A stretch of DNA of 63,892 nt, the filler included, from Chrysochromulina tobinii (Eukaryota), in the NCBI GenBank assembly GCA_001275005.1. It is 7 parts of 7 records of this genome, joined end to end, with 100 filler letters (N's around TTAATTAATTAA, not from the genome) between each part and the next. Parts side by side here need not be neighbours in the genome. Positions count along the whole stretch, not along the records: positions 37,781 to 57,013 come from JWZX01000509.1; 6 more parts are not named here. One strand, written 5' to 3'. A program made the position numbers and the translations under genes. The notes beneath the pieces are model-generated. The model saw only the letters and a program-made list of their open reading frames with translations, was not told where the DNA came from and did not search any database. Below, piece after piece: positions 216 to 62,244 of the stretch; position 1 is the first letter of the stretch, and each line of letters opens with the position of its first letter.

Positions 216-3200
216 ATGAACAATCCTCGCGTACAGACGGGCCGTGGAGGCCGAGGGCCCACCTCGGCGGCGCGCAGTCGCGCTCAGACCGCCGCCGCCG
301 CACCCGAGGGCCTGCAGGCCAACGGCCTGCTCACGGGCGTCTCGTCGATGTCGATCGTCGGCACCAACGGTCGCAAGGAGCCTGCAGGGGCGCCTGCGGC
401 CGCACCGCCGGAGAGCAGCCGCCGGCAGCTCCATGGGTCCAGCACAGAACAGCAGCACAGCGCTCGCAGCGCGCGCCAGACTGGCCAACGCAGCCTTAGC
501 CAGGATGGCGGGTTTGGTGACGGGCAGCAGCCGCGAGGCAGCGGCAGCAGCTTGGGCGGGAGCGTCACGGGCAGCACCGGGCTGGAGAGCAGCCGGAGCC
601 ACGGCCCGCGCGCGCACCACGCCTTGATTGCCGACGATGGAGTTCAGCACGCGTCGATCATGGACTTCAACACCGCGTTCTGCGCGTGCGTCAAAGTCTT
701 CTGTGCGAGCGTGGCGCCGTGCTACGCGCTGCCATGGGTGCGGGGCGAGGAGAGTCACACGACAGGCTCGGGCTTCGCGGTGGTGCTCCCCAACGGCGAC
801 CGGCGGCTGCTCACCCACGCGGCGATCTTGGAGAATCACTGCCTGGTGCAGGTGCGCCGCATGAGGCGAGGGCCGCAACGTGCGCATGGCGTCATGCTGA
901 GTGCTGCATCCCTCCTTGCCTGCTGAGCGCTACCTGCCTCGTTGCCGGCAGGTGCGCCGCGCGAGCGAGCACCAAAAGTACGTGGCGCAGGTCGTGTGCG
1001 TCGGGTACGACGTGGACATCGCCGTACTCAACGTTGAAGACGAGCAGTTCTGGCGCTCGATGCCGCTCCTGCCGCTCCCACACGGGCTGCCTGCTGCCAT
1101 GTCCGAGGTCCTGACAGCGGGCTTTCCTACGGGCGGCGAGGAGCTCGCGACCACGCGCGGTGAGTGCCCCTGCCGCCTACACACCGGTCCGAGATCGCCC
1201 CCGAGATCGCACCGAGATCGCACCGAGATCGCACCGAGATCGCACCGAGATCGTCCTCTGACTGCCCTCTGATCGCCACGAATGACCTCGGCGCTCTCGC
1301 GACGATTCGCAGGCGTGGTGAACCGCATCCTGCTTGGCGGTCAGACGCGGGAGCTGTGCGTCGCCATGGACGCGCCGATCAATCCGGGTAACAACGGCGG
1401 GCCGGTGCTCAATGTGCAAGGGCAGCTCGTCGGAGTTGCATGCTCGGGCACACAGGTGGGATTGCGTTTGATTGCGTTTGATTGCGTTTGATTGCATTTC
1501 GTCGGAGTTGCATGCTCGGGCACACAGGTGGGATTGCGTTTGACGGAGTGCCTCTCGATGGCCTCGGATTGCAACTGACTGTGGGGATGGCGTCCTCGGT
1601 CGAACAGCACGCGGCCGGCTTCATCATCCCTCTGCCTGTCATCCACACCTTTCTCGAGAACGCGGCTATCGCGGAGGCACAGGGGCACGAGTATGCGATA
1701 CAGGGATCGTCGAACCATGAAGAGTACCTTCTGAGGACCCCTGAGTACCCCCGGAGTGATACTCGGATCGTCCCTTCCCCGTGGCCCCAGGTACACGGGC
1801 AAGAACGTGGACCACTACCGAGTACAGCCCCTTGAGAATCCGGAGCTACGCATCTCGCTTGGATTGCCCGCACGCCCCGATGAAGGTGAGGATGGTGGCG
1901 TGCTTCTCTCGAAACTCGGACCGGACGCGGTGAGTCGCATCGCATGTGCTCCTCGAAAGCATGCTCCTCGAATGCATGCTCCTCGAATGCATGCTCCTCG
2001 AATGCATGCTCACGAATTTAATGCTCCCGAACGCCACCCTGAATGCCTCCCTGAATGTCCCTAATTTGGCAGGTGAGCGAGGGCATTCTGCGCGATGGCG
2101 ACGTGCTTCTCGCAGTCGATGGCTCCCCGATTGCTCCCGACGGCACCGTGATGCTACCCGAGGCCCCCTCCCTGCGTCTCGGGATGCGACATCGCGTGCA
2201 ACGCATGCCGCTGGGCACGGTGCTCGAGTATCTCGTCCTCCGAGATGGCGAGCGCATGGTCGTCCATGTGCCCACCTCGCCTCGTAAGCTTCGTCTGCTC
2301 CCGCCACGGCTGCCGGTGCCGCGGCCCGCCTGGCTCGTGCTCGGGGGCCTCGTCTTCTGCCCCCTATTGCCCGACTATGAGGCTCTGGTGCCCAAGTGCG
2401 CGCTGATTGCTATTGATGGCCATCTGATTGCTATTGATGGCCATCTGATTGCTATTGATGGCCATCTGATTGCTCCGGTTCGAATCCGCACGAATGGCCT
2501 GATGGCCTCCCTCATCAGCTACGGAATGGTCCATATGAGTGCCTCAAATGAGCTCTTGATGGTCTCCCTCATCAGGTGCCAGCTCCAGAGGATCCATGCT
2601 CTGATTGCCTCTGATGACCTCCCTCATCAGCTCTGATGGCCTCCCTCATCAGGTGCCAGCTCCAGAGGATCCATGCTCTGATTGCCTCTGATGACCTCCC
2701 TCATCAGCTCTGATGGCCTCCCTCATCAGGTGCCAGCTCCAGAGGATCCAAGCTCCGCCCACGCCCGAGCTGCTCGAGGTCGTCGTGCTGCTGCGTGTGC
2801 TCCAATCCGAGGTCAACATCGGGTACGTGATTGACGTGATTGACGTGATTGACGTGATTGACGTGAATGACGTGCGCTCCAATCCGAGGTCAACATCGGG
2901 TACGTGATTGAAGTGATTGACGTGATTGACGTGATTGACGTGATTGACGTGTGCTCCAATCCGTGGTCAACATTGGGTACGTGCGCCAATCACGTCCCGG
3001 GACTGGAGAGAGGCATGCAAGTGCTCACCACGGCGCCCGCGCTTCCCCACAGGTACGAGGACATCTGCGGCATGGTCGAGACCTTCAACGGCCATCGCGT
3101 CGCGTCGCTGATGCATCTGGCGCAGCTGGCGCAGCTCGCGCAGGAGACGGGCGCGGAGCTGCTCGAATGCATCCTGGTCACGGGCGAGCTGCTTGTGCTC

Positions 3201-38233: not shown

Positions 38234-40423
38234 TCAGCACTCCGCCGGCACCGGGCGTGCCACGTCGACGCTCGCGGCCGGATCCTCGACCCCCTCGGCG
38301 TCGCCCACCGGCGCATCATCCGTCCCGGCGTCGCCCACCGGCGCACTAGCAAGGGCGCGCCCCTCCCCATGCGCCCGCCCCCCATGGGCGCCCTTGGGCA
38401 TGCGCGGCGGGCGTGGCTTGGGCTCGGGCGCCCTGTTGGGCTTCTCGATGGCGTGGTTCATCGGGCGCGCGTGCAGCCCCGACCGCGACTTGATGCCTAC
38501 AGAAGGGAAGGCGGTGCAGAAGCCCTCCTCGAGCGTGCCTGATGAGGGAGGCAATCAGCGTATGAGACGAGGGAGGTCATCAGCGACCATCAGTGGCCAG
38601 CAAGTGAGAGGGCATTCGAATGTCCACCTCGAGCGCGCACGCGGGTGGCTTCTTGAGAAGCAATCAGAGGTCATCAGACGCAATCAGAGGTCATCATCAG
38701 AGGCCTTGGGCGTACGCAGGTCCATCGGTGGCTTCTTGTGCCCCTGGCGGTGGGCCTCGCCGCCGGCAGCGCATGCACGGCTCTCGTACGCAGCCACGTC
38801 AACGGCGGCGCCCACGACGGCGCCGCCACTCTCGATCGTGGGCAGCTTGGCGGGAGCGGAGGTGGGGTGGTAGAGTCGGCCGTTGAGGCCGCGGTGCGCC
38901 TTGGCGCCGACAGGTGCGAACGCGAGGTCCTGCAGCTTGTGCAGCTGCGCACGCAGCATCTTGACCTGCACGTCCGCCGAGGAGAGCTTCTCTGCGAGTA
39001 CGGCCGCTCGCGCCTCGGCCGTCTCGGCCCGCTCCGTCGCGTCGCGCGCCGCACGCACGGCTCCCTCGAGCTTCGAACGCTGCGCGACCACAATCTCCGC
39101 GGGCATCGGATTGTTCTCGGCAGCGGGCCGACGTGTGGGCAAAGGAAGGAGCGCCGCCGCCGCACGCTGCGCCACGGCAACTTCCTTTGCCGCGACCTTC
39201 TCCTCGCGCTGCTTGAGCGCGCGCTCAGCCGCCTCGAGCCGGCGCTGCAGCTCGGCCGCGCGCTGTTCCGAGCGCTCGGCCGCCTTCTGCAGCTCGGCCT
39301 CGCGCTGTCCCGAGCGCTCGACCGCCTCGAGCCGGCGCTGCATTTCGGCCGCACGAGACTTGGCGCTGTCACGCTCACTCTCTGCCGCCGCGGCGCGCTT
39401 CTCAGCCTCCGTGGCGGCGGCCTGCGCGGCAGCTGCAGCGGCCTGCACGGTCGCCGCGGTGCGCTCGGCGGCACGCGTGGCGCCCTCGGCGGCGCGCTTA
39501 GCCTCGGTCGCCTCCGCCAGCGCCTCGCGCGCCTCGCTCACCTCCTCGAGTGCGTCGGCCAGGGCGGCCGCTGCGAACTCAATCCCCTTGTCTCCGAGCC
39601 AAGAGACCTGCGCCTTCCGACGCGCGGCCTCAGCGTCGGGCTCTTCGGCGGGGTCCACGTGACCGCCTTGGCCGACGGCGGCGTCCTCGTGGCCGCCTTT
39701 GGGCGGCATCTCGCGCCGGCTCAGCTGGCCGCGCCGCACGGACTGCAGCCTCGTCGCCGCCGCCGCCTGTTCCCGCATCTCGCGACGATCCCGTTGGCCG
39801 CGGCCCGTCGCCTGGACAGCTGCCTGCTGACGCACCTGGCGGCGGTCCTGCTGGCCACGCCGCGCCGCCTGCAGCTTGGTGGCTGCAGCGGACAACTCGT
39901 CGTCATCCGCATCGACGGCGACGACGGCCGGCTTAACTGGCAGTCCATAGGCGTACTCCACCTGCAGAGCCCGACGGCTCTGCTGGCCGCGCCGCGCCGC
40001 CTGCATCATCGTCGCCGCCTCTTCTCTGCGCAGCACCACCAAGGGGCTCTCATCTTCTTCTTCGTCTACGTCGACCTCCTCTTCTGCCGTCGTTGGCGGC
40101 TCGGGTGCAGCTCGCACAGCACCGTTGCGACGAGCTTGCTGTCCACGGCGCACGGCTTGCAGCTTGGTCGCCGCGTCGGCCTGCTCGCGGAGCACTTGGC
40201 GGTCACGCTGACCGCGGCGCACAGCCTGGAGCTTGGTCGCGGCGAAGGCCTGCTCGTCCATCGGCGGCTCGGGTGCAGCTCGCACAGCACCGTTGCGACG
40301 AGCTTGCTGTCCACGGCGCACGGCTTGCAGCTTGGTCGCCGCATCGGCCTGCTCGCGGAGCACTTGGCGGTCACGCTGACCGCGGCGCACAGCCTGGAGC
40401 TTGGTCGCGGCGAAGGCCTCCAT
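38234..40423 (-). CDS. IQ calmodulin-binding repeat protein with long coiled coil
   Basis: About 7 AATKLQAxRRG motifs and an internal tandem duplication. Intron 38539-38715 joins it to the 38234-38538 exon. Confidence 0.8.
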
Positions 40424-42015: not shown

Positions 42016-42338
42016 GTGTTGATTGAGTGTGAACTGTGATATCGCCGTGATTCAGGTTGGTGTACGAGTATGCCGTGCTGTGTGTATACGTATACCAACC
42101 TGTCTATTGATTTGTCTTGTGAATGTGGTAATTTTGGTGTGTGCTCCGACGGACGTCTGCGTTGCGTCTCTTAACGAGCGTTTTCGAATAAAACGCGCCG
42201 CGCGACGTTCCGACGTAGACCGATGTGTGAAGTACAGTCCTCGTCAGCCAATCCTCGCCAGTGAGTGAGTGTTCGCCAGTGAGTGAGCTGCCATTGTTGC
42301 CGCATGCACGAGCGAGGGCGACCTACCTAACTAGTAAC

Positions 42339-43472: not shown

Positions 43473-43615
43473 ACATTAAAGTCAATCAAGACAAGACAAG
43501 TAAAATGTTCATGAGGTGGCACATATTCGTTCGTTCTCTCCCTCCCACGGCAATTTCACACCGCTGACAGTTTGAAGGCAGTTGAGCTGACTGTTTGCCG
43601 TGAATCGTTTCCGAA

Positions 43616-45323: not shown

Positions 45324-48300
45324 ATGCATATGCAAGAGCGCTCAGGCTACTGCAAGGTGCCGCCAACGAGCACAATCAAGATCTCAGTCATGCAGTACCA
45401 AAAGTGGCGCCAGGGACACCGAGGCAAGCGAGGTCGCAACTTCTTGAACGACGACGTGGAGCCCGGCTTTGACGCTCTGCTAGCTGACGAGCTCGCGGCC
45501 GCGTCGACGGAGGTGCGCGACCTGTTCGAGGCGTGCTCGGCGGCAGAGCCCCATCGACTGCGCGAGCTCCTTGATGCCAAAGCGGACGTCAACCTGGCTC
45601 TGCATGAGACGGCGACTCCTCTGACGACCGTGATACAGGCGAGCACGCGCGGCAGCGCTTCGGATCCGCTCGCATGCATCCGCTTGCTGCTGGAGGCGAA
45701 AGCACGGCCAGACGAAGCCGTCTTCGCTTCCGACAGCGGCACGCCGATTGGGGTTGCCACTCCACTCATCTTGGCGTGCGCCAAGGAGGACCACGCGCTG
45801 GTCGATCTGCTTCTCGAGCACCATGCGGCGCCCGACAGGACAGGGACCCTCAGCGACGGATGCCACCCGATGACTCCACTGATGGTCGCTGCCAGCCGAG
45901 GCGCGGTGGAGGTCGCTGAGTCCTTGCTTCGTGCAGGTGACCACTGATGGCCACTGATGACCGCTGATGACCTCTGATGACCTCTGATGACCACTGATGA
46001 CCGCTGATGACCACTGATGGCCGCTGATGACCTCTGATGGCCACTGATGACCACTGATGACCTCTGAGTGCGCCGAGTCCTTGGTTCGTGCAGGTCATCC
46101 GCTGCATGCGATCATCACCGAGGCGTCGCCCAGCTACCACGGCGATGATGCGATGAGCTTCACGATGAAGAATGCGCCGCCGAGCCTCATGCCGGCGATG
46201 GTGAAGCTGCTGCTGAGTGCGAGCCGCTCCCAGGATCCTGAGGGCTTCAACGCGCGGCACACCTCTGATATGCTGCAGTGCAGCCAATTTCTGGCCGAAG
46301 ACCGAGCCCTGATGGGGCTGCAGCTGCTTCTCGATGCCAAGGTGGACGTGAACACGCGCGTCTCGTGTGGGACGAGGTTGATGAACCCAAGCACCGGCCA
46401 CTTGACCCTCGTCGATTCAGTCATAGCATTGTGCGTCTGCTCACAGCCGTGCGCCCCTCCCCTCCCCTCCCTGCATGGGAGCCTAGCACGGCGCCAATGT
46501 CCTCATCTGTGCCTCCCCGCCCGCCGCGCAGTGCCATGACCCGCAAGAAGACATCCGCGTCGATCATCGAGCTACTCCTGAGGGCAGGCGCTGATCCTCA
46601 GGCCGCAATGAGTGCGATGCTCATGGGGCGCGAATATGACCACCAAACTGTCCGGCTGGTGCAGGACGCGTTCCAAATGATGAGCTACGCTGGGAAGCGC
46701 GTGCAGGTGCGCACGATGGTCAGTCGGCCGGAGCTCGTCGGCGCGCGCGGCAGAGTGCTCAAGAGCCGGAGCTGGCAGGGCATCGGCCGCCTAGCAGTGC
46801 TGCTCGAGGGGGAAAGCGTGCCGCTCTCGCTGCGAGTGTCGGCATTGCACTTTGGCGATGAGCCTCTGCCTTTCCTCGAGGGCCCCAACAACCCGGAGCG
46901 CGCTGAGGCAGCGCTGCGTTCCGATGACCAGGGGGCCGATACCGTTGACAACGAATGGGGCCTTCTCGCGCAACCTGAGGCCACCCCTCAGTCGTCGGAT
47001 TCCATGCCTCTTCAAAAGCTGGATCATGACGAGATCATGGCAAGATCGGAACGAGATCGAGACGAGATTACGCCTCTTGAAAACCTGGATCTAGACGAGA
47101 TCATTTGGCTGCTCGGTCCGCAGGATCAGCAGATTGCGCACGATTCGCAGGACCTGCACGTGCTCGCGTCGAGCAGCGACCTCAGCGACGTCGAGGATCG
47201 CATGAGGCGTGCGTGCAGGGATGGCGACATCGCCACGATGCGGGCACTCATCCAGCTCGCCCCTTCGGTCGTCTTTGAAAGCCACGAGAGGTCCCTCCTC
47301 GGAGAGGCCGTGTGCTCCTCGAAGAACACTGTGGAATGCATCCAGCTGCTGCTCGAGACCAAAGCTTCGCCAAGGTCGTCGTCGTCGTCGTCCAAGGAGC
47401 CCTCGCCCGTCTTCTATGCCACGATGATGGGGAAGCTCGAGGCGATCGAGCTGCTGCTCAAGGCGGGGGCCTCCTACGACGATCCGTGCCAAGGGCAGAC
47501 GAACATGTCGGCACTGGTCGGGCTCATGGGGATGATGCATGCATCTGCTGGGTGCCGCAGCGAGCAGATGGAGGCCCAGTTGCAGTGTATCGAGGCCGTC
47601 CTGCTCACGGCCTATGCGCAGCCCTCGCGGGAGATTGTGCGAGCTTGCCTCTTCAACATCTGGTGTGAGCGCGGCACCACTGGTTTGGTTCGGTTAATGC
47701 TCGGACAGAAAATGGATCCGAACCTTGACTACCAGTCCGCCGAGCCCGACGCCGGGGCCCGTCCCCTCTTCCCCGCGCGCGGCCACATAGACTGGACGCC
47801 GCTCATGCGCGCGTGCGCGGGAAAGCACCACGGCTGCGTCAAGATGCTCCTTGAGGCTGCCGCCAACCTGACGACAGCTTGTACCACGGATGCAGGGCCG
47901 AAGACGCCGATGCAGATGGCGCAGTCTCAGAACGACACCGACTGTATTCGGCTGCTGATCAGCATGCTGCAGCGGGGCCAGAAGCTCGTGGGGCAGACCG
48001 TCCAGGTCGTCGATGACTTCAAGCAAGCCCTCACCGGCAGGCTGGCGGAAGTCATCGAGTTCGATCCCAGAGAAGGCCTGTGCCGAGTCTCCGTCGTCGA
48101 AGAGGGCTCGCGCCGAATCTACCTCATTCCTCCTGCGAAGCTGCAAGCGTACACCGACGAGAGCGAAGTGGATGCTTACGAGCCGTCTAGCCCGCACTCG
48201 AATCCCTCCAGCCCGCGCCAGCCCGACCCGAGCAACAACGAGGACGACCGAGTAGCCCTGGTACCTGCAGTCAGCCGTGCGTCGTGTAGGCTGATGGAAG

Positions 48301-51300
48301 GCGTGAACGCCCTCAGTCTTCACAGGGTGCTGGAGTCGCTCGCCCTTGGCGCCAATGTGAACGGGATCTGGAATCTGGATCGTGGGCCTGTCACGCCGTT
48401 GCGCCTGGCCTCCGAGGCCATGGATGCTCCGAGGCAAGAGGTTGCTCATCCGTTGATGCTGCTCGTCGCCACGCTCCTGGCTGCACGCGCGGATCCGCAG
48501 CTGACCCTTGAGGATGGCTGGAGCTTCGACAAATGGGCCCAGGGCGATCCCAAACGTAATGAAATGCTCGTCAAGATTTATGACGCGGCGGGCAGAGCGC
48601 TCTCAGCCCCTCTGATTGCCGAAGGGGACGAGCTTGGCCTCCTCGAGACGCTCCGTGCCATGGAGCAGGACAAGAATGTGGCCCTCCTCCGTGCCCTCAC
48701 TCAGTACGTAGAGGATCCCGAGAAGAACGAGGGCAGCTGCGAGTCGGACCATTACCTTTCGGTGTGCAGCTTGCTCATCTCGGGCGCGAATCCAAACGCA
48801 GAGGTGGAGACGCGAGAGGGATGCCTCACGCCGCTCTTCATTGCGTTCCATTGCTACAACCCCAAGTCCGCGCCCGGCTCGGAGCTCTTTGCTGTGCGGC
48901 TGCTGCTTGCCGTCAAGGCCGATCCCTTTGCACACGTGACGGATAGGTGGGTGAGCGGAGAGCCTTGGACGCTTGAATTAGCCGCCAACAGCTCCGGCTG
49001 GCGCAATCTGGCGGGCTTGATTGATATGCTCGACCTGCGCGAGCTCGCCGACGCTGATGATTGGATTGAGTTCGATGGCTGCGACATCGCCACGTGGTCG
49101 GACGCTGCGATCTGGCTGCTTAGGAAGGCGGAGGACCCTCGGAATACAGACACGACAGGGAAGATGAGCTCGATGAGGCGGCACATTGATGAGCTGATGG
49201 CCCAAATGCGTATCCCCAAGTCTTACTTCGCTAAAGTCGAAGCGCTGGGCTCCTTGGTGCAAGCTCTCGTGGATCGCATTCGTCACGATTTGTCCACCGC
49301 GGCGCCGCGGCGGTCGTCTGGGGAGAATGACTCCGAAGTGGATGTGTATCAGGACGCGCAGGAAGAGAATGGGCAGTCGGGCTCTCCCGAGCAAGACGAG
49401 CCGAGGCTCCAGGAGCATCACCTTCGAGCGCTCGGAGCCATCCTGTGTCATTGCGCCGAAGCGGACGCGAGCTCGGCGGTGCTGCAGCTCCTGGACCACT
49501 CTGGCTTCGCGAATTCGTCTGGCTTCGAGCTTGTCCTCCAGACCGCGGACGAGAACACCGCGCTTTGGTACGCAGCCTCGAATGGGAACCGAGCAATGAC
49601 TGAGAAGCTCATCGGCCACGGCGCCCACGTCAACTTCCGCAAGTCCAGAGGATTAGGGTTGCAGCAGCATGAGGGCCCATCGGTCCTCGGGATTGCGTGC
49701 CAGGAGGGTCATCGTGGCTGTGCTGAGCTGCTGCTCGAGGCGCTCGCCCACGTGGATGGGGGCGAGTGGTATCCGGAGAAGCAGGTCTGGCATACGTTCA
49801 TCACGCCGCTGATGTTTGCATGCGACTCAGGCCATTGCTTGTGCGTTCGCCTCCTTTTGGAGCACAATGCGAGCGCGGACCTTCGGCTTCACGGTGTGGA
49901 GAAGGGTGGGCCGGAGCTCGCAATCGAGTTCGCCGAAGCCGCTGAGGAGTCGAACGATAGCAAGCTGTGCATCAAGATGATGCAGACGCACGGCGCGAAG
50001 GAGGAGATGCTTCAACGGCAACGGAAGGGCCAATCATCGACCAGCTTGCTCGAGGAGCTCGGCGGCAAGGGGAAGCGGCTGGTGGTCAAGAACCAGAGAG
50101 CGCCCAAGGACCCGAAGCTCGAGTCGGAGCTGCTTCACTGGGCCATTCGGCATGGGGACTTGGCCTTCGTGTCCAGGTGGCTGCGTGATGGCGGCCGAGA
50201 TCGCATCGATGAGCGCTGCCTCGACGGGTACACGCCGCTCGAGGTGGCCTCGCGACAGAGCCTGATGGAGCCGTATGGCGACGAGCGCTGCGCGAGCCAC
50301 ATGCTGGTCTCGAAGCTGCTCAAGTCCAAAGCCAATCCCAACACGCCGGATGGTCCGCTCGGCTGCTTCCCACTCCTGCTCGCGGCGACACAGGGCAGTC
50401 CCTTCTCTGTCGACATCTTGCTGGCTGCGGGCGCGGATGGCGCGCGCAAGACGCGCTTCGACCGTTGTGCGGCAGAGCACGCGCTCGCGGCAGGCCGTAC
50501 GACGATCGCTCATCTGATCCTCAATCACGCGTACCACGAGCAATGGCACAAGCGCGAGAGCAAAGGTCGAATGCTGCGCGCGCAGCGGGCCGCCATAGAG
50601 GTGGTCACTGGCTTCATTCAGACGATCGTGCAGGCGCACACAAGCCAAGCGAGCACCGACCATGCAAGCGTCGACGTGGACGATGGGCTCACGCTGCCGC
50701 AGCTCGAGCAGCAGCATGCAAGTGCTCACCACGGCGCCCCCAGCCTGCTCGAGCAGCTCGAGCAGCTCCTCGACGTGCACGGGGACGCGCTGCGTGGTAC
50801 GGACACCCTCGCGCAACGTACCCTGGCGCAGGCCATCGGCGTACGGGACGAGCTGCGGCGAGAGCAGAGCCAGTGCAGCGCCGAGAAGGCGGAGCGAACC
50901 CTTCGGGAAGCGTGCCGGGCAGCGACGGACGCCGCGTCGGGTGTGCCTGTCAAGGCGCGGTACGAGACGTTACGGCAGGCGATTCACATTCACACAAAGG
51001 CCCTCGAGGACACAGCCAAGGCGGGCGTGCTCAAGGAGGCGCGAAAGGTGCGCGAGCAGCTCGCCGAAGAGAGTCGCAGGGCCGCCAAGCGGGACGCGGA
51101 GAGCGCGAAGCGGGAGCAGAAGCGTCGCGACGAAGCCGCGCGCGCCGAGGCGGAGGCCGAGGCGGAGGCGATGGAGGAGATGCAACGGGAGGCTCGAGAG
51201 GAAGCGCAGAAGCGGCGTGGTGAGGCGGCACGCGCCGCGGCGGAGGCCGCCCGCGCCGAACTAGAGGAACTCAAGGCGGAGACGGAGGAGATGCCGCGAA

Positions 51301-51435
51301 AGGCGCGCGAGCAGGCACAGCAGGCACAGCAGGCACAGCAGGCGCAGCAGGTTCAACAAGATGAAGAAGAGCTCGCTGCGCGTGTGGCGGCGGCGGCGGC
51401 AGCGCCGTCGGCGGCAGCGGCGCCGTCTGTGGCAG

Positions 51436-51466
<31 letters not shown>

Positions 51467-54400
51467 GGCGGACTCACGGCCCGAACCGAGCACGAAGGCC
51501 AAGAAAAAGCGGCGTAGCAGTGGCGGCAGCGCAAGCGGAGCGGCGGCGGGAATGGCGGCGGCGGCGGAGACCGAGCCACGTGTTTCAGCGGCGGAGGCTC
51601 GCCAGAGGGAGAGGCTCGCCGAGATGGAGGCTGAGGATGAGCGCCAGCTGCTCGCGGCCATCGAGGCCAGCTTGCTCGAGCAGCAGCAAGCTGGCGGCCC
51701 GCCATCACCTTCGCCCGCGCCCGAGCCCACGCCCGAGACGGCGCCGGAGCCCGCGCCCATCACGGCGTCCAGCTTGCCTCGGGAGGCGACGCCCAACACG
51801 GCGCCCATGGTGGAGGCGAAGGCGCCCAGCACGGCGCCCAGCACGGCGCTCAAGGCCGACAAGATGGCCGAGAGGAAGGAGGCCAAGCACGCCATCAAAG
51901 AGGACGCTAAGATGGAGGCCAAGGACGGAACGACAAGCGATCTCTCGAGCGATCTCCCGCCCTCGCTGAGCGTTGCCGTGGGCTCTTCCGAGCGCTCGGC
52001 ATGGGTGACGAGCCGGTCGTTTGTAGGCCCCTTGATCGTCGAGTCGCAATCGCGGCCGGGCCACGTGCGTCGCGACCTGTGCATCCGCAAGGAGGGCCTC
52101 GCCTTGATCGCGGGCACCAACCAGAGGCGCCTCAAGGACATCGAGGACGCGACCGGCTGTTCCATATTTGTCCTCGATCGGGAGGGGCCGCCGCCCGGCT
52201 GCGGCCCGAACGAGCGCGCCCTCGTGCTCGTCGGCAGCTCGGACGGTGTCGAGTTCGCCACTCTGATGCTCTACGATGCCGACGCGGCGGGGTCCGACTC
52301 GGCGCTCAACTCGGCGCTCATCCTCGGACCGCTCGTGCCAGAGGTTTCGTCAACGGCCACAGAGGTTTCGTCAACGACTACAGAGGTTTCGTCAACGACC
52401 ACAGAGGTTTCGTCAACGGCCGCAGAGGTTTCGTCAACGGCCACGCCGTCGGCCGCCGCGCCGCAGGTCGAGTCTGTGCAGTCGTTGCAGCCGTTGCAGC
52501 CGTTGCAGCCGTTGCAGCCGGTGGACTCGTCGGAGCCTTCGGCCACAGCAAAGTTCGAGCGCGCGAAGAGCCTCGACGAGCGCGCCGTCGTGGGCGCCCG
52601 TCCGGAGAAGCCATCGCCTCTCGCCCTGGGCCCGGCGATGGCGCCCACGACGGCGCCCACGCTCGCGCCCACGACGGCGCCCACGACGGCGCCGGCTGTG
52701 GAAGCGCCGATGGCCGCGGTCCGCCCCTATAAGCAGCAGCCCTGCCACTTCTTCGCGAGGGGACTGTGCAAGAACGGGGGGCTCTGCCCCTTCTTGCATG
52801 GCGAGGCCGACCCTCGACTGACCGACCCGCGCCTCATCAGTCCTCGGGCCGCGTCTCAGAAGAAGGATGTGCGCCGCACGTCTCTGCCGGCGGGTGCGCC
52901 GTCGCCTTCTCCGCCGCCACCGCCACCGCTCCCGCCAGCTACTGAGGCACACGTGACCTCGCCGCCGCCGCCGCCGCCGCTGCGGCTGCCGCCAATCGCC
53001 GGGGCAGATGCAGCGCCGTCTCGGGCAGATGCGGCGCCGTCTCCTCCTCCTCCTCCTCCGCCGCCGCCGCTGCTGCCAGCTACTGAGGCGGCCGATGTAG
53101 TTCCATCTCCCCCGTGGTCTGCTATGGCCGCAGCGGCCTCGAGCAAGGGCACTGCCCGCGGGCGTGGCGGGCGTGGCGGGCGTGGCTCGCGCGGCGGTAC
53201 GCCCGCCACGACGCCCCAGGACGGCACGCCCGCCACGACGCCCCTGGACGGCACGCCCGCCACGACGCCCCACAGCGGCCCGCTCGCCGCAGACGGCCTC
53301 TCCGGGGCGTCGGGTGTGCTTGGGCCGCTCGACACGGCGCTCGACTTGCTGCCGCCTGCAGCGAGCGCGAGCAGCCCCCCACCCGGTCTGTCGATCAACG
53401 GCGCGCTCTGGCCGTCGTCAGCAGGGCCACTCGCAGCAGGGCCATTCACAGCAGGGTCATTCACAGCAGGACCATTCACAGCAGGACCATTCACAGCAGG
53501 ACCTCAGAGCCACCCGCCGCTCGAGACGACGCTCTCGCTCCGTCCGCTCGAGATGAGCGCCGAGATGAGCACGTCCCAGACGACGCTGCGCGGGCTACGG
53601 AATCTGGGCAAGACGTGCTATCTCAACGCGTGCCTACAGAGCCTCCTCGCAACCGAGGCGGTGCGCGTGCACTTCCTCGCGAAGCAGGTTTACACGGCGG
53701 CGAAAGGGTTCGAAGTGCCCACGACGGCGCCCCTCGGCAACGGGTTGCGGCCGTCGGTGCCCACGACGGCGCCCAGGGTCCGCGCGGAGGGAGAGCTGAC
53801 CAGCGCCATGCGCAGCTTCGTGCGCGAGATGCACGGGCCGCTGACCGCGTCGTCCGAGGCCGTGCGTCCCGTCGGACTGTTGCGCGCCGTCTCGACGCGC
53901 CACTCCCGATTTGGGCAGCGGACGGAGCAGGACTCCCATGAGGTGCTTCGTCAATTGCTCGAGGGCATCCGGTCCGAGGAGGTCTGATTGCGTCTGATTG
54001 CGTCTGATTGCGTCTGATTGCACCCCTCATCAGGTGCTTCGTCAATTGCTCGAGGGCATCCGGTCCGAGGAGGTCGAACGACTCAAGGGTGAGGCGGCGG
54101 AGGCGACGGCAGCGGTGTCGCCTCTGACGAAGCCCAAGGCACTACCGAATTTGGCACTGCCGCCCATCGAGCCCGATCCGTGCACGATCATCGATGAGGT
54201 CTTCAGCGGCGAGCTGCGATCGACGATCGTCTGCTGCACCTGCGGGAGCGTCTCGTGCGCGCATGAACCCTTCCTCGACCTTTCCCTGCCGATGCCGCGC
54301 CGCGGCCGGCTCGACGCGCAAGATGGGCCCCAGAGCCCGGGAAGCCCCAGAAGCCCCGGAAGCCCCGGAAGCCCCGGAAGCCCCGGCAGCCCAGCCGAGG

Positions 54401-55493
54401 ACACATTCGCCGACACGCCCGCCGTCGCGAGCGGCAGCGGCGGCGGCGCCCGGGGCTTCGTGGGCGGCAGCCCCGGCCGGGGCGGGGGCAGCAGCGGCGG
54501 CGGGCGCGAGGGCAGTGGCTCGGCAGATCTCAATCTCGATCTCGGATCGGCAGATCTCACCGACGAGGTGCTCGCACAGCTGCCGAGCGTCCTCACCTCC
54601 AAGCCTTCACAGCTGCACCTGGGATCGTGCCTCGCTGCCTTTTTCGCGCCGGAGACCCTGCGCGGCGACGATGCGTATGACTGTGACGTCTGCAGCAAGC
54701 GCGCGGCAGACGCAGCTGTGAAGGCCTCCTCTGCCAAGGAGGCCAAGGCAGCCGGCAAGACGGACAAGGCACACGGCGCCGGCGCCCACGGCGGCGCCAA
54801 GGGTGAGAGGGAGCTGGCGCAGCCGCCGTCTCCCAGGCCGAAGCAGCCCGGGCTGAAATGGCTTCAGGTCAACGGACTGCCACGTGTCCTCTGATGGCCT
54901 CTGATGACCTCTGATGGCCTCTGATGACCTCTGATGTCCTCTGATGGCCTCCCTCATCAGGTCAACGGACTGCCACGTGTCCTCTGATGGCCTCTGATGA
55001 CCTCTGGTGGCCTCTGATGGCCTCCCTCATCAGGTCAACGGACTGCCACGTGTCCTCTGATGGCCTCTGATGACCTCTGATGGCCTCTGATGGCCTCCCT
55101 CATCAGGTCAACGGACTGCCACGTGTCCTCACGCTACACCTCAAGCGTTTCCGAACCACGGGTCGGAAGGTGCATAAGCTGTATGAGCACGTGCCCTTCC
55201 CGCTCGTGCTCGACTTTTCGTCCTTTGCATGCCAGCCTGGTGAGCCCGTCAAGCACTACACGCAGCTCAGCGACGGCGTGGCGCGCCCGCCGTCCGCGGC
55301 GCATCTGAGCTTGTACGCGGTCGTCGAGCACCAGGGCACCTTTGTTGGTGGTCACTACGTCGCCTTCGTGAAGAACGGGGGCGCGTGGTACCGCATGAAC
55401 GACAGCGTCGTCACGCACGTGAGTGAGGCGACCGTGCTCGAGGCCAAGGCCTTCATGCTCTTCTATCAGCAGACGCCTTCGCCGACCGCCTGA
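45324..55493 (+). CDS. Giant ankyrin-repeat / coiled-coil / UIM / KH / CCCH-zinc-finger / USP deubiquitinase
   Basis: Many TPLxxA...LLxAxA ankyrin repeats; EDERQLLAAIEASL; KH-like IAGTNQRRLKDIEDATGCSI; CHFFARGLCKNGGLCPFLH; GLRNLGKTCYLN, EQDSHE, HQG...GGHY...ND. Introns 45937-46093, 46431-46531, 53943-54033, 54868-55106. The 5' end is uncertain (may begin near 45026). Confidence 0.8.
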
Positions 55494-55750
55494 CAGCGCC
55501 GACGCGGTTGCGCCGGCAGTGCACGATTCAAGATAGCAGCGGTCAAGCAGTGCACGATTCACCGACTGTGCGGTGAGCTTAAATACATTTCCAGCGACTC
55601 GTGGAGAGCCGCCTTGATCCTATGACCGGTTGATGAGCATGTTCTTCTGTTCCCTGAATTTGTTTCCAAAAGGATAGCGCGTTTAACACTCCGCTCTCCG
55701 ATTCATAAACTAAACAGACCCAGTACGCAGTAGCCGGTACACTGGTACTC

Positions 55751-55945
55751 AATCCCGCCCGGTAATATAGGGCAGCGAGCACCAGAGATCACACTGTGTG
55801 CTGGGAGAGACCGACCTCACTAGCGAAATTGAGTAGCCCGAGCGAGCGAGTACTCAGTACTTGTGTTGACCGAGGGGAGCGGAGCCGTCCGTCGAGACGG
55901 CGGTGGAGTGAGCGTGGGGGGACCGCGACGAAACTGAACTGAACT
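55751..55945 (+). mobile_element. Second, internally deleted copy of the element at 6258-6732
   Basis: Reverse-complement match that lacks about 270 bp (6309-6581 of the other copy); ends GAAACTGAACTGAACT. Confidence 0.6.
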
Positions 55946-56473
55946 CAGTACTGCTGCGTCGACACTCACAGTGTTCAGTTCAAAGGAACAAATAAGCCTA
56001 TGACGGACGTAGTATGAAGTATGCGAGGTATATAACCATGAGCGAGGGTGGCAGCGGAGCACCAGGTCGTGTCGAACGAGCCCTGAGAGCATCGCTGCGA
56101 TGACGGGGGTACCAGACAAGGCTGTTGAAAGCGTTAGGTCGGATTGGGGGGCTATTTTTGGTTGCGGGGTGCGATGATTACGCAAAAGTTGGCCATTTAG
56201 TTGGCCGGCCACATGTCGGAAAAATGGCCAGTCGGCCCGCGCCGTGCCCGATGTCGGCAAAGGCAGACGCGGAGGCGGCGGCGGCGTTGCGCGAGCTCGG
56301 CGCGACGCTGAAGGCGTCGATGAACGCGCCGAAGCTGCACACGCGGAACGAAATGTACTTCGCAGGTAGTACGAATATGAGCTTAGGTCCCTTCCGGCAA
56401 CTCGTGCCCAGCTACAAGCTGCGGCACTGGTCGAGGACAAGGTGGAGGCTTTGGTGGAAGTGAAACGAAACCG

Positions 56474-57013
56474 ATGGCAGAGGCACCCTTTTCCCAGGTT
56501 ATGGAGCGTGAGGCCAAGCAGGGACCGGTGGCCACGGGCAAGCTCGCCTGTGGTGGACCCAAGGCGCTCGTCCAGTCGCAAAATGAGGCCGAGGCGTTCG
56601 GTCAGAGGTTCTGGACGCAATATGAGAAGAACAGTAAGTGGAAGTCACGCGACGGCGTGATCTACTTCGAGGCGGAGCGGATGTACAAAGAGATGCTTGA
56701 GGGGCACGACGGCAGCCCCGCACCCGTGCGGCTCCTTCGCCTCTCATGGCTGCTCGAGAAGGCCCGCCGCCGTGCGGTGCTGCCACGGCGGCAGGAGCTC
56801 CCGGAGGAAGCATTCCTTTCGGAGGCGGAGGTGCGCGCACTCCCGCGCGGGCACGTGGGAAGGGCTTGTGAGACCTGGGTCAGCATATTGATTCCCGGGA
56901 GGTCGCCGAACCTCATCGGCGCAACCTGGCGGCGCGCCAATGCCGCCGCCGCGCATGAAGTTCTGGAACGAACTGAGCAGAAGCAACAGTAGCAGCAGCT
57001 GGGACGTGTGCGA
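56474..57013 (+). CDS. Fragment of a protein with the algal 'VRLL..SWL...LPRRQELPEEAF' N-terminal motif, next to a gap
   Basis: The motif is one I recall from expanded algal protein families; exon structure is unresolved. Confidence 0.4.
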
Positions 57014-57113
57014 NNNNNNNNNNNNNNNNNNNNNNNNNNNNNNNNNNNNNNNNNNNNTTAATTAATTAANNNNNNNNNNNNNNNNNNNNNNNNNNNNNNN
57101 NNNNNNNNNNNNN

Positions 57114-59042
57114 CCCAGCATGCCTTATCGCGTGCGCACTGGCACGCTAGGAACGTGCACTTCGCCTTGAGCTTGCAGTCGCCCCAGCCGTGCGTAGTGC
57201 TCGCGCACATGGTGCACGGCGGCTTCTTAGCCCACTCCGTCACCTGCAGTTTCTTGCGCTTCTCGCGCTCCGCCGCGGATACCTCGTTCTGGACCTTGGT
57301 GGAGGCCTTTTTGATGTATTCGACGAGCTCGTTGCTGAGGCTCTGCAAGGTGAGCACGGAGCCGTTGTAGATTGGCTCGACGTTCTCGCCCGCAGCCTCC
57401 GCGATATTGATGCGCTCCGTGATGAGGTCGCACTTCTCTTTGATCTCGTTGGGCACCTTCTTGAGTATCCAGCGGAAGAGTGCGTGCGGGGCCTCGCGAA
57501 CACGCTTCGGAGAGATGCGCAGGTGCGACTGGAGCAGCGCGATCGCGAGCTTGATGGAGTCCTTGTCCATGCCGAGTTTGAGGTACTGCGTCGCCTCGAG
57601 CTTCTTCAGGTCTGCCTCCTCATCGCCCGTGTGCCGTGCCGTCAGCAAGGATCCGATGCGTGCGGCAATCTCGATGCCCGAAGATGTCGTGCCGGGTACC
57701 TGGCGTTCGAGCTCGAGCAGCTCGTGCTCGAAGACCTTGCCCTTGGGCTTGGTGACTTCGATGAGCGCGAGGAGCGCCGATGCGCCCCACATGTTGGCCG
57801 TCGCAGCGTGCTCGTTGTCCGAGATGATCTCGAGCGGTCGTTCGTTGTTCTCGTCCGTCCACGCGAGTTGGAGTAGGGCTCCGAACTGCGGGTACCGCCT
57901 GCGCATGAACGTGAGCACCTTGAGCTTCCAGTCCTCAAGCGTCGCGACGTTCAGGTCCGTCTTGTACACGTCGATCTCCTGCGATGAGAGCTGCTTGCTC
58001 ATCTCACGCGTCGGCCGCGTTTCCCAGAAGGTCGTGAAGTCCTTGTAGGTCGCGCTCTCGTCGTCGTCGCCGTCGGTGCCGTCCGTGTCCGTCACTGCCG
58101 CGCCGTGCTCGTCAGTGTCGAGCTCAAGCTCTTCTTCGTCGCTCGTTGCCTGCGATGACGGTGCCGAGCTGTTGCTGCCTGCGTCGTCGTCGAGGTCGTG
58201 GTTACTGCCGTTCATCGAGATGTCGTGCATGCCGATTATTGCGGTTCCCACGTGTGCGATGAAGTGCGCAAGCAGATTCAGCTCTTTCAGCATCCTTGAT
58301 GCTGATGCTGCGAGCATGACCATCGCGTACGCTGACGCGGTCTTCGGGTACGCGCCGGCGAGGCGTGCGCCGTGCTCAATTGATCGCATCACGGCGGTTC
58401 GCACGGCGAGCGTCAGCGCCTTGATGTAGCAGATGATGTTGGGCATGTGGACGAGCATCTTCGGGAGGAGGAGCTGCTTTAGCATCAGCGTCGAGCCCAT
58501 CACGAGCCCCGCGTTGTGTGCGAGCTTCAGGAGGCGTGCCATCGTAGCGCCCCCTTTGTTGAGCCACGCGTTCCCCATGCTCGGCGGGGCGATGGGGCGG
58601 CGCGGGGCCGATTGGAGTGTGCGGCGCGTGCGTACTTGCACGTGCGCGTTGCCGCTGGGCTCTGCCTTGTGCAGGGCCTCCTCATCTTGGCCGAGTGTGG
58701 TCTGAAAGCGGGTGTTATGCCCAGATGCTCGGCTCTTGGTTCCTTCTGCCTTGATGCGCACTGGGGTGTTTGCCGAGTGCACCTCGTTCTGGCGTTCAAC
58801 CGATCCATCGGTTGACGGCCACAGCTGCTTTGGGGTGCCGCCTTTGGTGGCCCTCTCCTTGAAGCCTGCTGTGGTATGCGCGCTTGCCTTTTCAGTTTGC
58901 GCGTCCTTGTTGATCTTCCGACTCGGTGTCGAAGTCGTGACCAAATCCGCTACCACGCGTGCGGGGTGCTCGAGCGCAGCCGTCCCACCGGCTTGCTTGG
59001 CTCGCGGCACCAGCTGCCCCGTGTATTTCCAGGGGGTAGCCA
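57114..59042 (-). mobile_element. LTR-retrotransposon gag-like ORF, running into a gap
   Basis: Long ORF ending in a CX2CX4HX4C knuckle (CTMCASTTHGWGDC), immediately downstream of a candidate LTR. Confidence 0.7.
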
Positions 59043-59194
59043 TGAAACCCGACCGCCTCTGCGGCACGGGAATCTTACTGCACAACAAACTGGCGGGCTC
59101 GCGCCCAACCCGTTACACACTAATTTGGTAAACACAGTTGGCGGTTTGGGAATGCATGTGACTGCATGCCGCCGGGACCTGGGGTGTGGCCTCA
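59043..59194 (-). mobile_element. Candidate short LTR (about 152 bp)
   Basis: On the minus strand it is preceded by G-rich GATTGGGGGG, bounded by TGAGGCC...GGTTTCA, and followed by TGG (PBS-like). Confidence 0.45.
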
Positions 59195-59287
59195 CGCGCG
59201 CCCCCCAATCTGGCCGACGCTCTGCGTAGGTCTGATTGCCTGTTACGTTAAGGGACCGGTGCGACCGTGCCCTTCCGTCACTGGTGT

Positions 59288-62244
59288 TCACTGGTCCTCG
59301 TAGGAACGGTCCGAGTACTGGTAGGAGTATTCCGCAGGGATCTCGAGGTCGTCGTCGGAGTCTATGAGGCCCTCATGGTTCGTCTGGAAGTGGCAACGGT
59401 CGCGGTAGTACACGGAGTGCGAAGCCGATGGTCCTGGGAGGCCGTTGTCGTCGAGTCTAGCGGCAACCTGCTTTGGGTCCACGTGCATCGTGTCCGGCGA
59501 CGGCACCACGTGTTGAGGCATGAGCGCAACGACGGGCGGCAGGGGCACCACTGGGTTAGGCGGCGGCACGACGTCGGGCGGCGGCTGACGTTGGTATTTC
59601 CGTATGCCTGAGCGCATCGTCATGAAGGCGGTATCGGCCTCGAGCGCCGAGACTTCGAGCATTGGTAGCTTGGCACACTTCTTCGATGGATGCGGAGTTG
59701 GGCAAATTGCACCGTCAACGGTTTGCATGTTTCGCATGCAATTTGGGTCGCCATACGGATTGTCATTGTCGTCGTCGTCTGCGCGAGCAGTGCGTTCGTG
59801 CTGCTCGGCGCGGCGTTTGCGGTCGTTGATTGTCTCTGCGTATTGCATCCAGTCGTCCGCGACGTCATCGTAGTCCTTAGTACTCATGTCCTCGTAGCGG
59901 CCCCATCCAGGAGCGTCCGTGTCCATGGTGTTAGATTCCGATGCGGCAAGGGCGGCGATGCGCCGGGCTTCCTTGAACTCGATTGAGTGGATCGCATAGT
60001 TTACGAAGTAGAGCTTGGCGCCTGTGCCGAGGTACAATGTGATCGTACCTCCGGCGATGATGCCGAAGGTGAAGGGATCGTGGCGGTCGGCGGTGAGCTG
60101 CGCACGTTCGGCGGCGCCCTTGCGGAAGGCAACATTGTCGGACTGCGGCTCGTCCGGGGCCGGCATGTTGTGTGCGTACTCGGTGTACAGCTGGCCGAGG
60201 CGTTCGGTCTGCGCTGTGGACGAGATGTCGGTGTCGACGAGCAGGCCGAGCGGCTTGAGCAAAGAGTGGGTGGCCATTTCGATGAGCACGAACGGCTCCA
60301 GCTTGATCGCCATGGTCGTGTCATTCTTGTTCCAGTAGTAGGGGACGGCGCCAGTCTTGATCGTTGAGGTCTCGAGGGCTGATGCTTCGGCGCTCGCGGC
60401 GATCATGTTTTTGGAGTTGGTGAGGTACGCGACCGCCGTGTCCGTCTGCTTCTTGCCCTTCCACTTTGTCATGAAGTCGACGGGCATAGACGCCGTGTCG
60501 ACCTTTGCGAGGATGATGTTGCCCTGACGCACCTGTGCTCGGATGTGCGCCCACCGGCGCATCGCGTACTTCGCTTTGCCAGGCGTGGCTGTACCGAGAC
60601 CGAGGGTGAGGTTGGCCGAATTGTCCGTGCCGATCATGATGGGGCCCGTCGGTGGGTGGCCGTATATGGCCGTAGGCACGCAAGATCTCGGCAGCGTACG
60701 TGGCGACTTGCGAGGCGCGCTCGGTGGCGACGCTCTCGTTCCCGACACTGCCAAGCTCGTCGATGAACTCGACGACCGTGCTGATCTTCTTGACCGCGTG
60801 CGCGACAACTCCGCCGTTGTGCGTGAGGACCAGTGCATAGACGGAGCGGCCGTCGACGTTGGCGTCTGCATGGACTTCCGGCTGCTCGGGTGCCGTAGCT
60901 TCGAGGTCCATGTTCGCGAAGAGCCCGCCTTGCAGCATGACGCGTTCAGTGAGCTGACCGCCGTAGGTGATGCCTTCCTTGCGCCGTGCGTAGAGGGCGG
61001 CGATGAGCGAACGTGCGACGGTGAGTGCTTCGGGCTGCTTAGCCATCGAAGCCACACACGCGATGCGGTGCTGCAGCTCACGCAGTGTGGCCGCTTGCGC
61101 TTGCTCGTCTTGGCCATCTCGCCAAGGGAGGACGCGGCGTCCCTGTTCGTCTTGAACGTCGCCGAGGGTTGCCGTCGAGAGCATGAGCTTGAATTGCAGG
61201 TTGTCCGAGATCGTCGCGTGCGTGGCCGCATAGTCCTCAATGCCCCTCGCGATCTGGATGCGCTTGACCTGGTCGCCGGCGGAGCAGAGCCTTGACTTGA
61301 ACTTGAGCAGTTCGTGCGTCACGAGGTCCTTCTTCACGGAATCCTGCATCACAACCGGGGAGATGATTGCGCCGAGTGCTTTGGCTACTTTGCGCTTCTC
61401 CATAGTGTTCAGCGGGTTCGAGAGGACGGATTCGTGAGCCGCTTGGTGCGAAAGGCGCCATGCAGCCTCGTGAGGGTCGGCCTTGAGCGCGCGCTCGTTC
61501 TTGGGGATGGTGATGGTGTACCACTCACCGCTCGCCGACTTGACGTCGACGATGTTCTTGAGCGCCTTGGAGACCTCGAGATCGTCGGCAAGCTCGGTGG
61601 CGCTCACCTCGGCCTGGAACGGGTCGATCTTGTTGAGGGCGCACTCAAGCTGGTGGATGTGCTCGCGTGCCTTGTCGAGCTCCTCGATCGACTGCACCTC
61701 GATCGGCACGATGTGGCCGAGCCATTGGTGCGCGATTGCATTGAAGGTGTCAATGGCCGCAGTCTCCGAGAGCCTTGGGAGGACGCGCTCGAGCGCGGCC
61801 GAGACCGGCATTGCCAGCCCGGTCGATCGCAGGACTCGACGTGGCGCCCCCTGCTGCAGCGCTATCATTGGGGCGATGGGCGCGGCGGGCACGGGTGCAG
61901 CAGCGGCAGGCGAGGGTGCGTTGAGCAGCCGCCACGGTTGGTGCTGCGATGTGAGGTCAAAGAGCTTGCCCTTCCACTTCGGATCGTCGGCCCAGCTCTT
62001 GTCGTCCCAGCTCAGCTCGGTGAACACCTTACCCGACTCTTGCTTGTGTGACTTGGTGACCGTGGCTGGGAACCATGTAGGCTTCTGCTTGTCCGTGTCG
62101 AAGCACATCTCGAGTCGCGTGCCATCAGGCAGCGGCTCGTAGCCCGCCTGGATGACGATCGGGGCGGGCGGTGGCTTCGGCGGGGCAGCGAGCACGAGCG
62201 GCGCGTAGGTCGCATCGTCGTCCGTCTGCACTTCCGCCTCGATC
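59288..62244 (-). mobile_element. Defective Ty1/copia pol (RT remnant + RNase H) with a long C-terminal extension
   Basis: RT start KFKSRLCSAGD. RNase H motifs ITYG...HADA...GRSV...GTDNSA...KAKY...HIR...MPVDFMTK. No YxDD motif; frameshift at about 60665. Confidence 0.85.

What the first reader, a model, noticed from the sequence alone, without database searches (positions are those of the whole stretch)
53943..54075. Intron whose 5' half is an exact copy of the next exon's start: snapshot of intron gain by duplication
The 91-nt intron begins with 42 nt (53943-53984, GTGCTTCG...GAGGAGGTC) identical to the start of the downstream exon (54034-54075). It continues with about four CTGATTGCGT repeats carrying a branch-point-like CTGAT and ends CCCCTCATCAG. 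Duplication around an AG|GT protosplice site plus an added branch/acceptor cassette would create exactly this structure, and the perfect identity implies a very recent event. The same architecture recurs in several unrelated genes here, which points to a systematic intron-creating or remodelling mechanism rather than an accident.
Basis: partly seen in the sequence, partly recalled or inferred. Interest (0 to 1): 0.85.

Follow-up and report, generated by a model that had tools for sequence, protein, structure and literature searches.

The report
Algal intron made with exon copy
In a freshwater alga, a spliced 91-base intron consists only of a copy of the next exon's first 42 bases plus a splice-signal cassette shared with many other introns, which likely records a new intron being made when a DNA break was patched with another intron's end, a footprint also seen in a distant algal relative.

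Summary
Confirmed. 53943-53984 equals 54034-54075 (42/42). The duplication is in the DNA (repeat at about twice flanking depth) and RNA contigs skip the 91 bases. The host is a haptophyte ankyrin/KH/CCCH ubiquitin-protease gene. The site is intronless in a same-genome paralog, in two distant DNA loci and in 16 of 18 homologues that reach it, so gain is likely. The intron is exon copy (donor GT) plus a genome-wide branch-point array/acceptor cassette, joined at short microhomologies. The footprint recurs in this window (24, 26 and a decayed 12 nt) and in a distant haptophyte with telomere-type filler (25/27 nt). Best reading: break repair with a long target duplication and a filler copied from another intron's 3' end (0.5). 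[quoted passage not shown] 'Very recent' is overstated: all 15 listed ORFs from natural alleles fit intron presence and three carry a change in the intron copy. The one intron-less allele may be an assembly collapse. The scan found this footprint before in the same genome (e1-2577349). New variant of introner-like/break-repair gain.

The parts
53943..54033 (+). 91-nt GT-AG intron, phase 0, between His-Glu and Val of the ubiquitin-protease domain
   Evidence: frame needs its removal; RNA contigs skip 91 nt. mRNA alone cannot fix the register inside the repeat
53941..53984 (+). first copy of the 44-nt direct repeat (AG + 42 nt); supplies the GT donor; likely the intronic copy
   Evidence: Q-to-R change found only in this copy in 3 alleles
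53985..54033 (+). 49-nt filler: 10-nt TGATTGCGTC array, last CTGAT at 54014-54018 (predicted branch point, motif recalled), acceptor CCCCTCATCAG; family shared genome-wide
   Evidence: thousands of contigs laid on such arrays; no stable fold, z=0.75; no Rfam match at gathering score
54032..54075 (+). second copy of the repeat = start of the next exon (VLRQLLEGIRSEEV)
53982..54072 (+). alternative GT..AG register giving the same mRNA; matches the position of an intron in distant homologue L008
   Evidence: not distinguishable by mRNA
54868..55106 (+). second intron of the same build: three tandem units of [24-nt exon copy + CTGATGGCCT array + acceptor]; 1 unit in L001, 4 in L006
   Evidence: RNA skips all 239 nt
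45937..46093 (+). mirror-image intron in the same gene: array first, 3' end copies the upstream exon end (11 of last 12 match)
   Evidence: spliced in RNA contigs
45324..55493 (+). host gene: ankyrin repeats, KH, CCCH finger, UCH (ubiquitin C-terminal hydrolase) domain; four introns; start predicted
2396..2729 (+). predicted intron in another gene: older 5' part, then two 77-nt units each starting with a 26-nt copy of the next exon
   Evidence: boundaries from reading frame only
38539..38715 (-). predicted intron starting with a decayed copy (9 of 12) of the next exon, then array and the same acceptor
   Evidence: boundaries from reading frame only

Best explanation
This is a real, spliced intron made of a 42-base copy of the next exon's start plus a shared branch-point/acceptor cassette, and it was likely gained when a staggered break (or a stalled fork) at a GT-starting site was repaired by duplicating the target and filling the gap with sequence likely copied from the 3' end of another intron. 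Shown: the duplication, the splicing, the cassette's sharing across the genome, the absence of the intron in the paralog and most homologues, short microhomologies at the joints (GTC with the array; CATGAG|GT target against CATCAG|GT cassette end). Inferred: that the filler came from another locus, that repair synthesis with template switching (polymerase-theta-like) did it, and that the event was a single step. Because the copy starts with GT and the cassette ends in AG, splicing restores the original mRNA exactly, so such events would be tolerated; the new unit can then expand in tandem (1, 3 or 4 units at the second site).
For: Every base of the intron is exon copy (42) or cassette (49); no remnant of an older 5' intron part. 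Intronless at this codon: paralog L002-L005 (L005 is one 3,101-codon open frame), L007, L008, and allele L001; 16 of 18 homologues that reach the site read through it, four of them on contigs of 11-226 kb. Variable copy lengths 42, 24, 26, 12 here and 27 in L008, no terminal inverted repeats or fold. Left-joint microhomology 3, 4, 3, 0, 1 in five independent cases, sum 11 against 3.7 expected, p=0.0075. Excluding the two focal introns, 14 other introns resemble their next exon's start more than shuffled pairs (53 against 42.0 +/- 4.4, p=0.010). Mirror case 45937-46093 and an internal 32/34 duplication with array filler in L017 show that array fillers arrive between duplicated targets even without an acceptor. 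Only 7 AGGT sites in the 1,584-nt protease coding region, so relatives sharing a site by parallel gain is expected (parallel gain is common in Daphnia, PMC4202315, passages). Templated insertions with microhomology, from up to kilobases away, are known for POLQ (PMC4183433, passages).
Against: P0050, weakly placed as sister to the window's clade (80/71), starts MQ|VLRQ, as if it had an acceptor at the same codon; L008 shares the second site. The window itself shows units arising by duplication across an existing acceptor (2396-2729), a local route needing no ectopic donor. No exact donor for the 49-nt filler was found in the window or loci (best 34/37). L001's absence may be a collapse: its exon-2 protein equals P0041, which starts at the intron end, and Logan run X5 shows how a graph can merge exon 1 with the repeat. 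DNA or RNA origin of P0001/P0006 is unknown. Both statistics rest on few, hand-picked introns; 12 of the 14 boundaries are predicted, not RNA-checked.
Confidence: 0.5

Rival explanations
1. Remodelling, not gain: an older intron stood at this codon; a local forward-then-backward template switch (or a tandem duplication across the acceptor followed by loss of the older 5' part, possibly via partly spliced cDNA) replaced its 5' half with a copy of the next exon's start.
For: All templates lie within 100 nt. Units with the older intron still upstream exist at 2396-2729 and 4465-4266. P0050 probably has an acceptor at the same codon, P0022 starts there, L008 shares the second site and the alternative register. 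The same microhomologies fit.
Against: Paralog, L007, L008 and 16 of 18 homologues lack the intron here. Array-bearing introns have next exons starting GT/GC in 8 of 9 cases against 3 of 7 for the others (tally), as expected if they are born at such sites. Even under this reading the position had to be gained within this clade at some time.
Confidence: 0.25
2. Gain by an RNA-templated route: the 3' end of a spliced or unspliced intron RNA is joined precisely at the target and reverse-transcribed, stopping early at microhomology; the staggered second cut gives the long duplication (target-primed reverse transcription or partial reverse splicing; hallmarks recalled, not from a call).
For: Precise, shared 3' end at AG; variable 5' truncation inside the array at microhomology; variable duplication length; all arrays seen lie in introns in the sense direction.
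Against: Mirror and internal cases lack the acceptor end (45937-46093, L017); selection alone explains sense orientation; no reverse transcriptase linked; the search for a direct precedent found none.
Confidence: 0.17
3. A transposase-driven introner (MITE-like) that carries the acceptor and takes its donor from the target duplication.
For: Same splice-site logic as Symbiodinium and Polarella classes 4/5 (bioRxiv 10.1101/2020.10.14.339549, parts 1-2 of 4); introners are reported for a Chrysochromulina sp. (bioRxiv 10.1101/2022.06.06.494994, section 7).
Against: Those duplications are fixed at 3-8 nt; here 12-42 nt and variable. No terminal inverted repeats; element length and 5' end vary; the reported Chrysochromulina class carries the donor, not the acceptor.
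Confidence: 0.05
4. Assembly artefact or an unspliced disruptive repeat.
For: Short-read assemblies differ in unit number at the second site (1, 3, 4); X13 holds unspliced junctions.
Against: Double depth on the repeat, both junction contigs in DNA, independent assembly L006, 15 ORFs from other samples, spliced RNA contigs.
Confidence: 0.01

Closest known systems
Introner-like elements of Symbiodinium and Polarella glacialis classes 4/5 and 6/8/10 (bioRxiv 10.1101/2020.10.14.339549, parts 1-2 of 4 read; 10.1101/2022.06.06.494994 section 7 read)
   Same: Insert carries the 3' splice site; the 5' splice site is the start of the target duplication; mRNA unchanged; many introns share sequence.
   Different: Duplications there are fixed at 4 or 8 nt, with inverted repeats in Symbiodinium. 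Here 12-42 nt, variable, no inverted repeats, filler is a tandem branch-point array cut at microhomology.
Intron gain by staggered double-strand-break repair in Daphnia pulex (PMC4202315, passages read; PMC3443670, passages and section 8 read)
   Same: Insert flanked by a direct repeat of the adjacent exon; parallel gain at the same sites; internal repeats in young introns.
   Different: Daphnia repeats are 4-12 bp and the source of the inserts is mostly unknown; here repeats reach 44 nt and the filler is a recognisable splice-signal cassette shared with other introns.
Tandem genomic duplication of an AGGT-containing exon segment (PMC3443670 section 8)
   Same: Duplication across AG|GT; the intron begins with a copy of the next exon; precise gain.
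   Different: In that model the intron is only duplicated exon; here 49 of 91 nt are foreign and supply branch point and acceptor.
POLQ-dependent templated insertions (PMC4183433, passages read)
   Same: Microhomology-primed copying of nearby or distant DNA into a break.
   Different: Shown in mouse B cells; not tied to intron creation in the passages read; no polymerase theta was looked for in this alga.

Membership tests
Spliceosomal GT-AG intron | removed from mRNA, GT..AG ends | tested here: met
Spliceosomal GT-AG intron | branch point used at the last CTGAT; donor register 53943 rather than 53982 | not testable with these tools
   both registers give one mRNA; allele change confined to the upstream copy favours 53943
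DNA-transposon-type introner | fixed short target duplication | tested here: not met
   42, 24, 26, 12, 27 nt
DNA-transposon-type introner | terminal inverted repeats | tested here: not met
   none at the intron among the 25 longest of 47 inverted pairs shown; fold z=0.75
Introner in the broad sense | many introns in one genome share sequence | tested here: met
   acceptor cassette at 12 places in the window scan; 6,544 and 3,698 contigs laid on a 10.7-kb stretch, piling on the arrays. Shared part is the 3' cassette only
Introner in the broad sense | insertion at a previously intronless site | tested here: inconclusive
   absent in paralog and most homologues; P0050 and L001 ambiguous
Introner in the broad sense | mobilised by a transposon enzyme; autonomous partner | not tested
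   no whole genome held
Tandem genomic duplication gain | duplicated exon segment spanning AGGT | tested here: met
Tandem genomic duplication gain | intron made of duplicated exon sequence only | tested here: not met
   49-nt filler
Break-repair intron gain | filler flanked by direct repeat of adjacent exon, microhomology at joints | tested here: met
   (five cases, p=0.0075)
Break-repair intron gain | dependence on end-joining enzymes | not testable with these tools
   needs experiment

The most novel reading that the evidence does not exclude
Haptophytes run a transposon-free intron factory: the 3' ends of existing introns (tandem branch-point arrays plus acceptor) are copied into new GT-starting sites with long, variable target duplications, each new intron becoming a donor for the next; the same process works across distant lineages with lineage-specific filler, 10-nt CTGAT arrays here and telomere-type CCCTAA arrays (which contain a CTAAC branch motif) in a distant relative.
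Probability: 0.3. Interest if true: 0.85.

Novelty: new variant of a known kind. Interest (0 to 1): 0.62.

Why it matters
Where new introns get their branch point and acceptor is the open part of intron gain by duplication or break repair; in most reported cases the source of the insert is unknown. Here the source is recognisable, both junctions are intact, RNA confirms splicing, natural alleles exist, and a distant relative shows the same footprint with different filler. A genome-wide count in existing haptophyte data would directly test a non-transposon, self-feeding route to many introns. It also warns that short-read assemblies can erase or miscount such introns.

Tried and rejected
No whole genome was held, so no genome-wide survey; records behind the loci were not searchable. 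Cassette patterns in viral and prokaryote collections gave little: 0 hits; 1 (unrelated AT-rich DNA); 7 (L014 is a cassette-only intron in a stray eukaryotic contig, L015 an array fragment, the other five were only compared with the cassette); 1 (L017). Rfam: 2 matches, both under gathering score. Fold no better than shuffles. Rejected as proof of presence/absence polymorphism: L001 (collapse possible) and the half depth of the repeat-to-cassette contig in X5 (37.8 against 95.1 and 66.6, with no cassette-to-repeat contig; the tool says a hole proves nothing). The in-frame exonic cassette at 50714 could not be dated: the paralog aligns poorly there. In one search, L001 (same event as 54868) and L014 (no copy; end coordinate set 4 nt short) were dropped before the count. 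In one search one further intron of the first gene (near 1700-1790) and a candidate at 29987-29940 were not included. Genus not established: haptophyte rests on a homologue named Phaeocystis antarctica and on e1-2577349; 'Chrysochromulina-like' is recall. Paper searches listed no description of this footprint in haptophytes (listings only; the library lacks most subscription papers; supplementary family tables of the two introner surveys were not seen and may list this species).

Full report
Observation. The 42 nt at 53943-53984 equal 54034-54075 and the 91-nt segment runs GT to AG. With the preceding AG the repeat is 44 nt. The rest is four 10-nt units and the acceptor CCCCTCATCAG. The window is a string of contigs joined by N linkers; this one spans 37781-57013. 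The host gene encodes ankyrin repeats, a KH domain, a CCCH finger and a UCH protease domain; sources name cluster members ubiquitin carboxyl-terminal hydrolase 16/45. The frame is open only if 91 nt here and 239 nt at 54868-55106 are removed; retention gives a stop at 53985. The organism is a haptophyte (homologue named Phaeocystis antarctica; e1-2577349); the genus was not established.

Real and spliced. Of 20 runs listed, 16 hold the stretch, 6 as RNA; I laid 3 DNA and 3 RNA runs, all contigs, and the RNA runs may be one campaign. In X6 the repeat is a 44-nt unitig at depth 263.6 against 111.8 and 133.8 beside it. In X3 unitigs end at 53970 and begin at 54046, as a true 44-nt repeat predicts. 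X11 has one 531-nt contig from exon 1 into exon 2 and another that skips the 239-nt block; X13 has the spliced junction (depth 2.8) and both unspliced junctions (2 and 4.5), so splicing is incomplete or DNA is present there; X14 fits the spliced form. The mRNA cannot tell the register: 53982-54072 is also GT..AG.

Gain or remodelling. A metagenome scan gave 8 loci from 78 pattern matches. L006 (99.99% identical) has the intron and four units at the second site; L001 (orthologous by synteny, about 1% different) lacks it and has one unit; the same-genome paralog L002-L005 and distant L007 lack both; L008 lacks this one but has introns 39 nt further on and at the second site. The paralog is a single 3,101-codon frame where the window's copy has four introns. 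Of 18 homologues that reach the codon, 16 read through, four on contigs of 11-226 kb, the others of unknown DNA or RNA origin; P0022 and P0050 start at it, P0050 with MQ|V, which suggests an acceptor. The tree of 17 rows joins the window with P0022 and P0001 (100/99), then P0050 (80/71), then the paralog. So the position was gained inside this clade; whether the present sequence dates from that gain is open. There are only 7 AGGT sites in the protease coding region, so shared sites by parallel gain are plausible, as in Daphnia (PMC4202315, passages). L001 cannot carry the argument: its exon-2 protein equals P0041, an ORF that starts at the intron end, and X5 shows a graph merging exon 1 with the repeat.

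Age. Of 39 cluster members 15 were listed: 9 end at the intron's stop, 6 start at its end, none reads through; three carry Q-to-R in the upstream copy only, one carries L-to-R in the downstream copy. The intron thus predates much allelic variation and the upstream copy is likely the non-coding one. Identity over 42 nt only bounds divergence to about 7%.

Recurrence. Same gene: 24-nt copy with array and acceptor in 1, 3 or 4 units; a mirror intron at 45937-46093 whose 3' end copies the upstream exon. Other genes: 26-nt copy twice behind an older intron (2396-2729), a decayed 9/12 copy (38715-38539), 9 nt without array (852-951), duplications across donors (1456, 2823). For 14 introns other than the two focal ones, intron starts match the next exon's start at 53 positions against 42.0 +/- 4.4 shuffled (p=0.010; 12 boundaries predicted from frame). 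The arrays are genome-wide: thousands of contigs pile on them. Distant L008 has an intron that starts with 25 of 27 nt of the next exon (both differences at third codon positions), then CCCTAA-type repeats and CAG; CCCTAA is the telomere motif of Phaeocystis globosa (PMC11347835, passages). L017 has a 32/34 duplication around an array filler. The scan's earlier finding e1-2577349 reports a 15-bp case in this genome and over a hundred relatives; I could not recount these.

Mechanism. Copy lengths vary (42, 24, 26, 12, 27), there are no terminal inverted repeats and no fold. The copy meets the array at microhomologies of 3, 4, 3, 0 and 1 nt (sum 11 against 3.7, p=0.0075; five hand-picked cases), and the sequence before the donor resembles the cassette end (CATGAG against CATCAG; TTCAG against ATCAG). 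I infer repair synthesis that leaves the target at the end of the copy, copies an intron's array and acceptor, and re-enters the target upstream at an AG|GT-like word. That duplicates the target, places GT at the start and AG at the end, and leaves the mRNA unchanged. Templated insertion by POLQ is a known model for the copying step (PMC4183433, passages); its role here is untested. The same joints fit a purely local remodelling of an older intron (0.25) or an RNA-templated insertion (0.17; hallmarks recalled).

Comparison. The splice-site logic is that of Symbiodinium and Polarella introners with 4- or 8-nt duplications (bioRxiv 10.1101/2020.10.14.339549, parts 1-2 of 4); the introner reported for a Chrysochromulina sp. 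has a 4-bp duplication and carries the donor (10.1101/2022.06.06.494994, passages and section 7). Non-LTR-derived introners exist (PMC12130899, passages); a review's passages show only short duplications (PMC11282704). Daphnia break-repair repeats are 4-12 bp. Tandem duplication of AGGT is established but uses exon sequence only (PMC3443670, passages and section 8). The C. tobin genome paper mentions introns once, without sequence features (PMC4580454, passages). It works like an introner or break-repair gain but fails the transposon-type membership tests. Searches listed nothing on this footprint in haptophytes; supplementary tables of the introner surveys were not seen.

Verdict. Real, spliced, probably gained; a new variant of known routes, with long variable duplications and a recognisable splice-signal filler in two distant lineages. 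Interest 0.62.

Noticed in passing
window 17457-17556, 28796-28895, 33973-34072, 37681-37780, 57014-57113, 62245-62344: 100-nt linkers of N with a fixed 12-base word join unrelated contigs; neighbours across them are not linked.
   Followed up: yes
window 50714-50738 and 3013-3037; L017:1501-1525: A second shared acceptor-type cassette lies in an intron at 3013 and in L017, but at 50714 it sits in frame inside an exon between 10-nt direct repeats and is not spliced: possibly an insertion that found no donor.
   Followed up: partly
L008:210-348, 511-666, 1282-1400, 1674-1744, 2088-2199: Introns of a distant haptophyte are filled with telomere-type CCCTAA repeats on the sense strand, which contain a CTAAC branch-like word (motif recalled); one starts with a 25/27 exon copy.
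   Followed up: partly
window 54868-55106; L001:2586-2678; L006:11553-11864: Unit number 3, 1 and 4 in three assemblies; each internal acceptor is followed by GT, so recursive splicing is possible.
   Followed up: partly
protein P0016: Begins in the cassette and exon 3 of the window's gene, ends as the paralog: chimeric assembly or gene conversion.
   Followed up: no
window 55750-57013 and L006:12508-17645: About 5 kb present in the window's strain where L001 has about 0.5 kb of other sequence; its start is a 151-nt repeat also at window 6582-6732, inverted, 99% identical.
   Followed up: no
window 45000-50908, run X5: X5 differs at 36 listed positions, some at half depth: another strain, perhaps two haplotypes.
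   Followed up: no
window 24704-27544: Pyridine-nucleotide oxidoreductase fused to AIRS domains, like selenide-water dikinase fusions (name recalled); carries an array intron at 25577-25678.
   Followed up: no
window 35891-36676: 56-nt tandem satellite, 14 copies.
   Followed up: no
window 57114-62244: Long minus-strand frames that look retrotransposon-like by eye; Pfam found nothing in three frames tested.
   Followed up: partly
L014: A contig filed under a bacterial genome holds a eukaryotic cassette-only intron of this family: likely contamination.
   Followed up: partly
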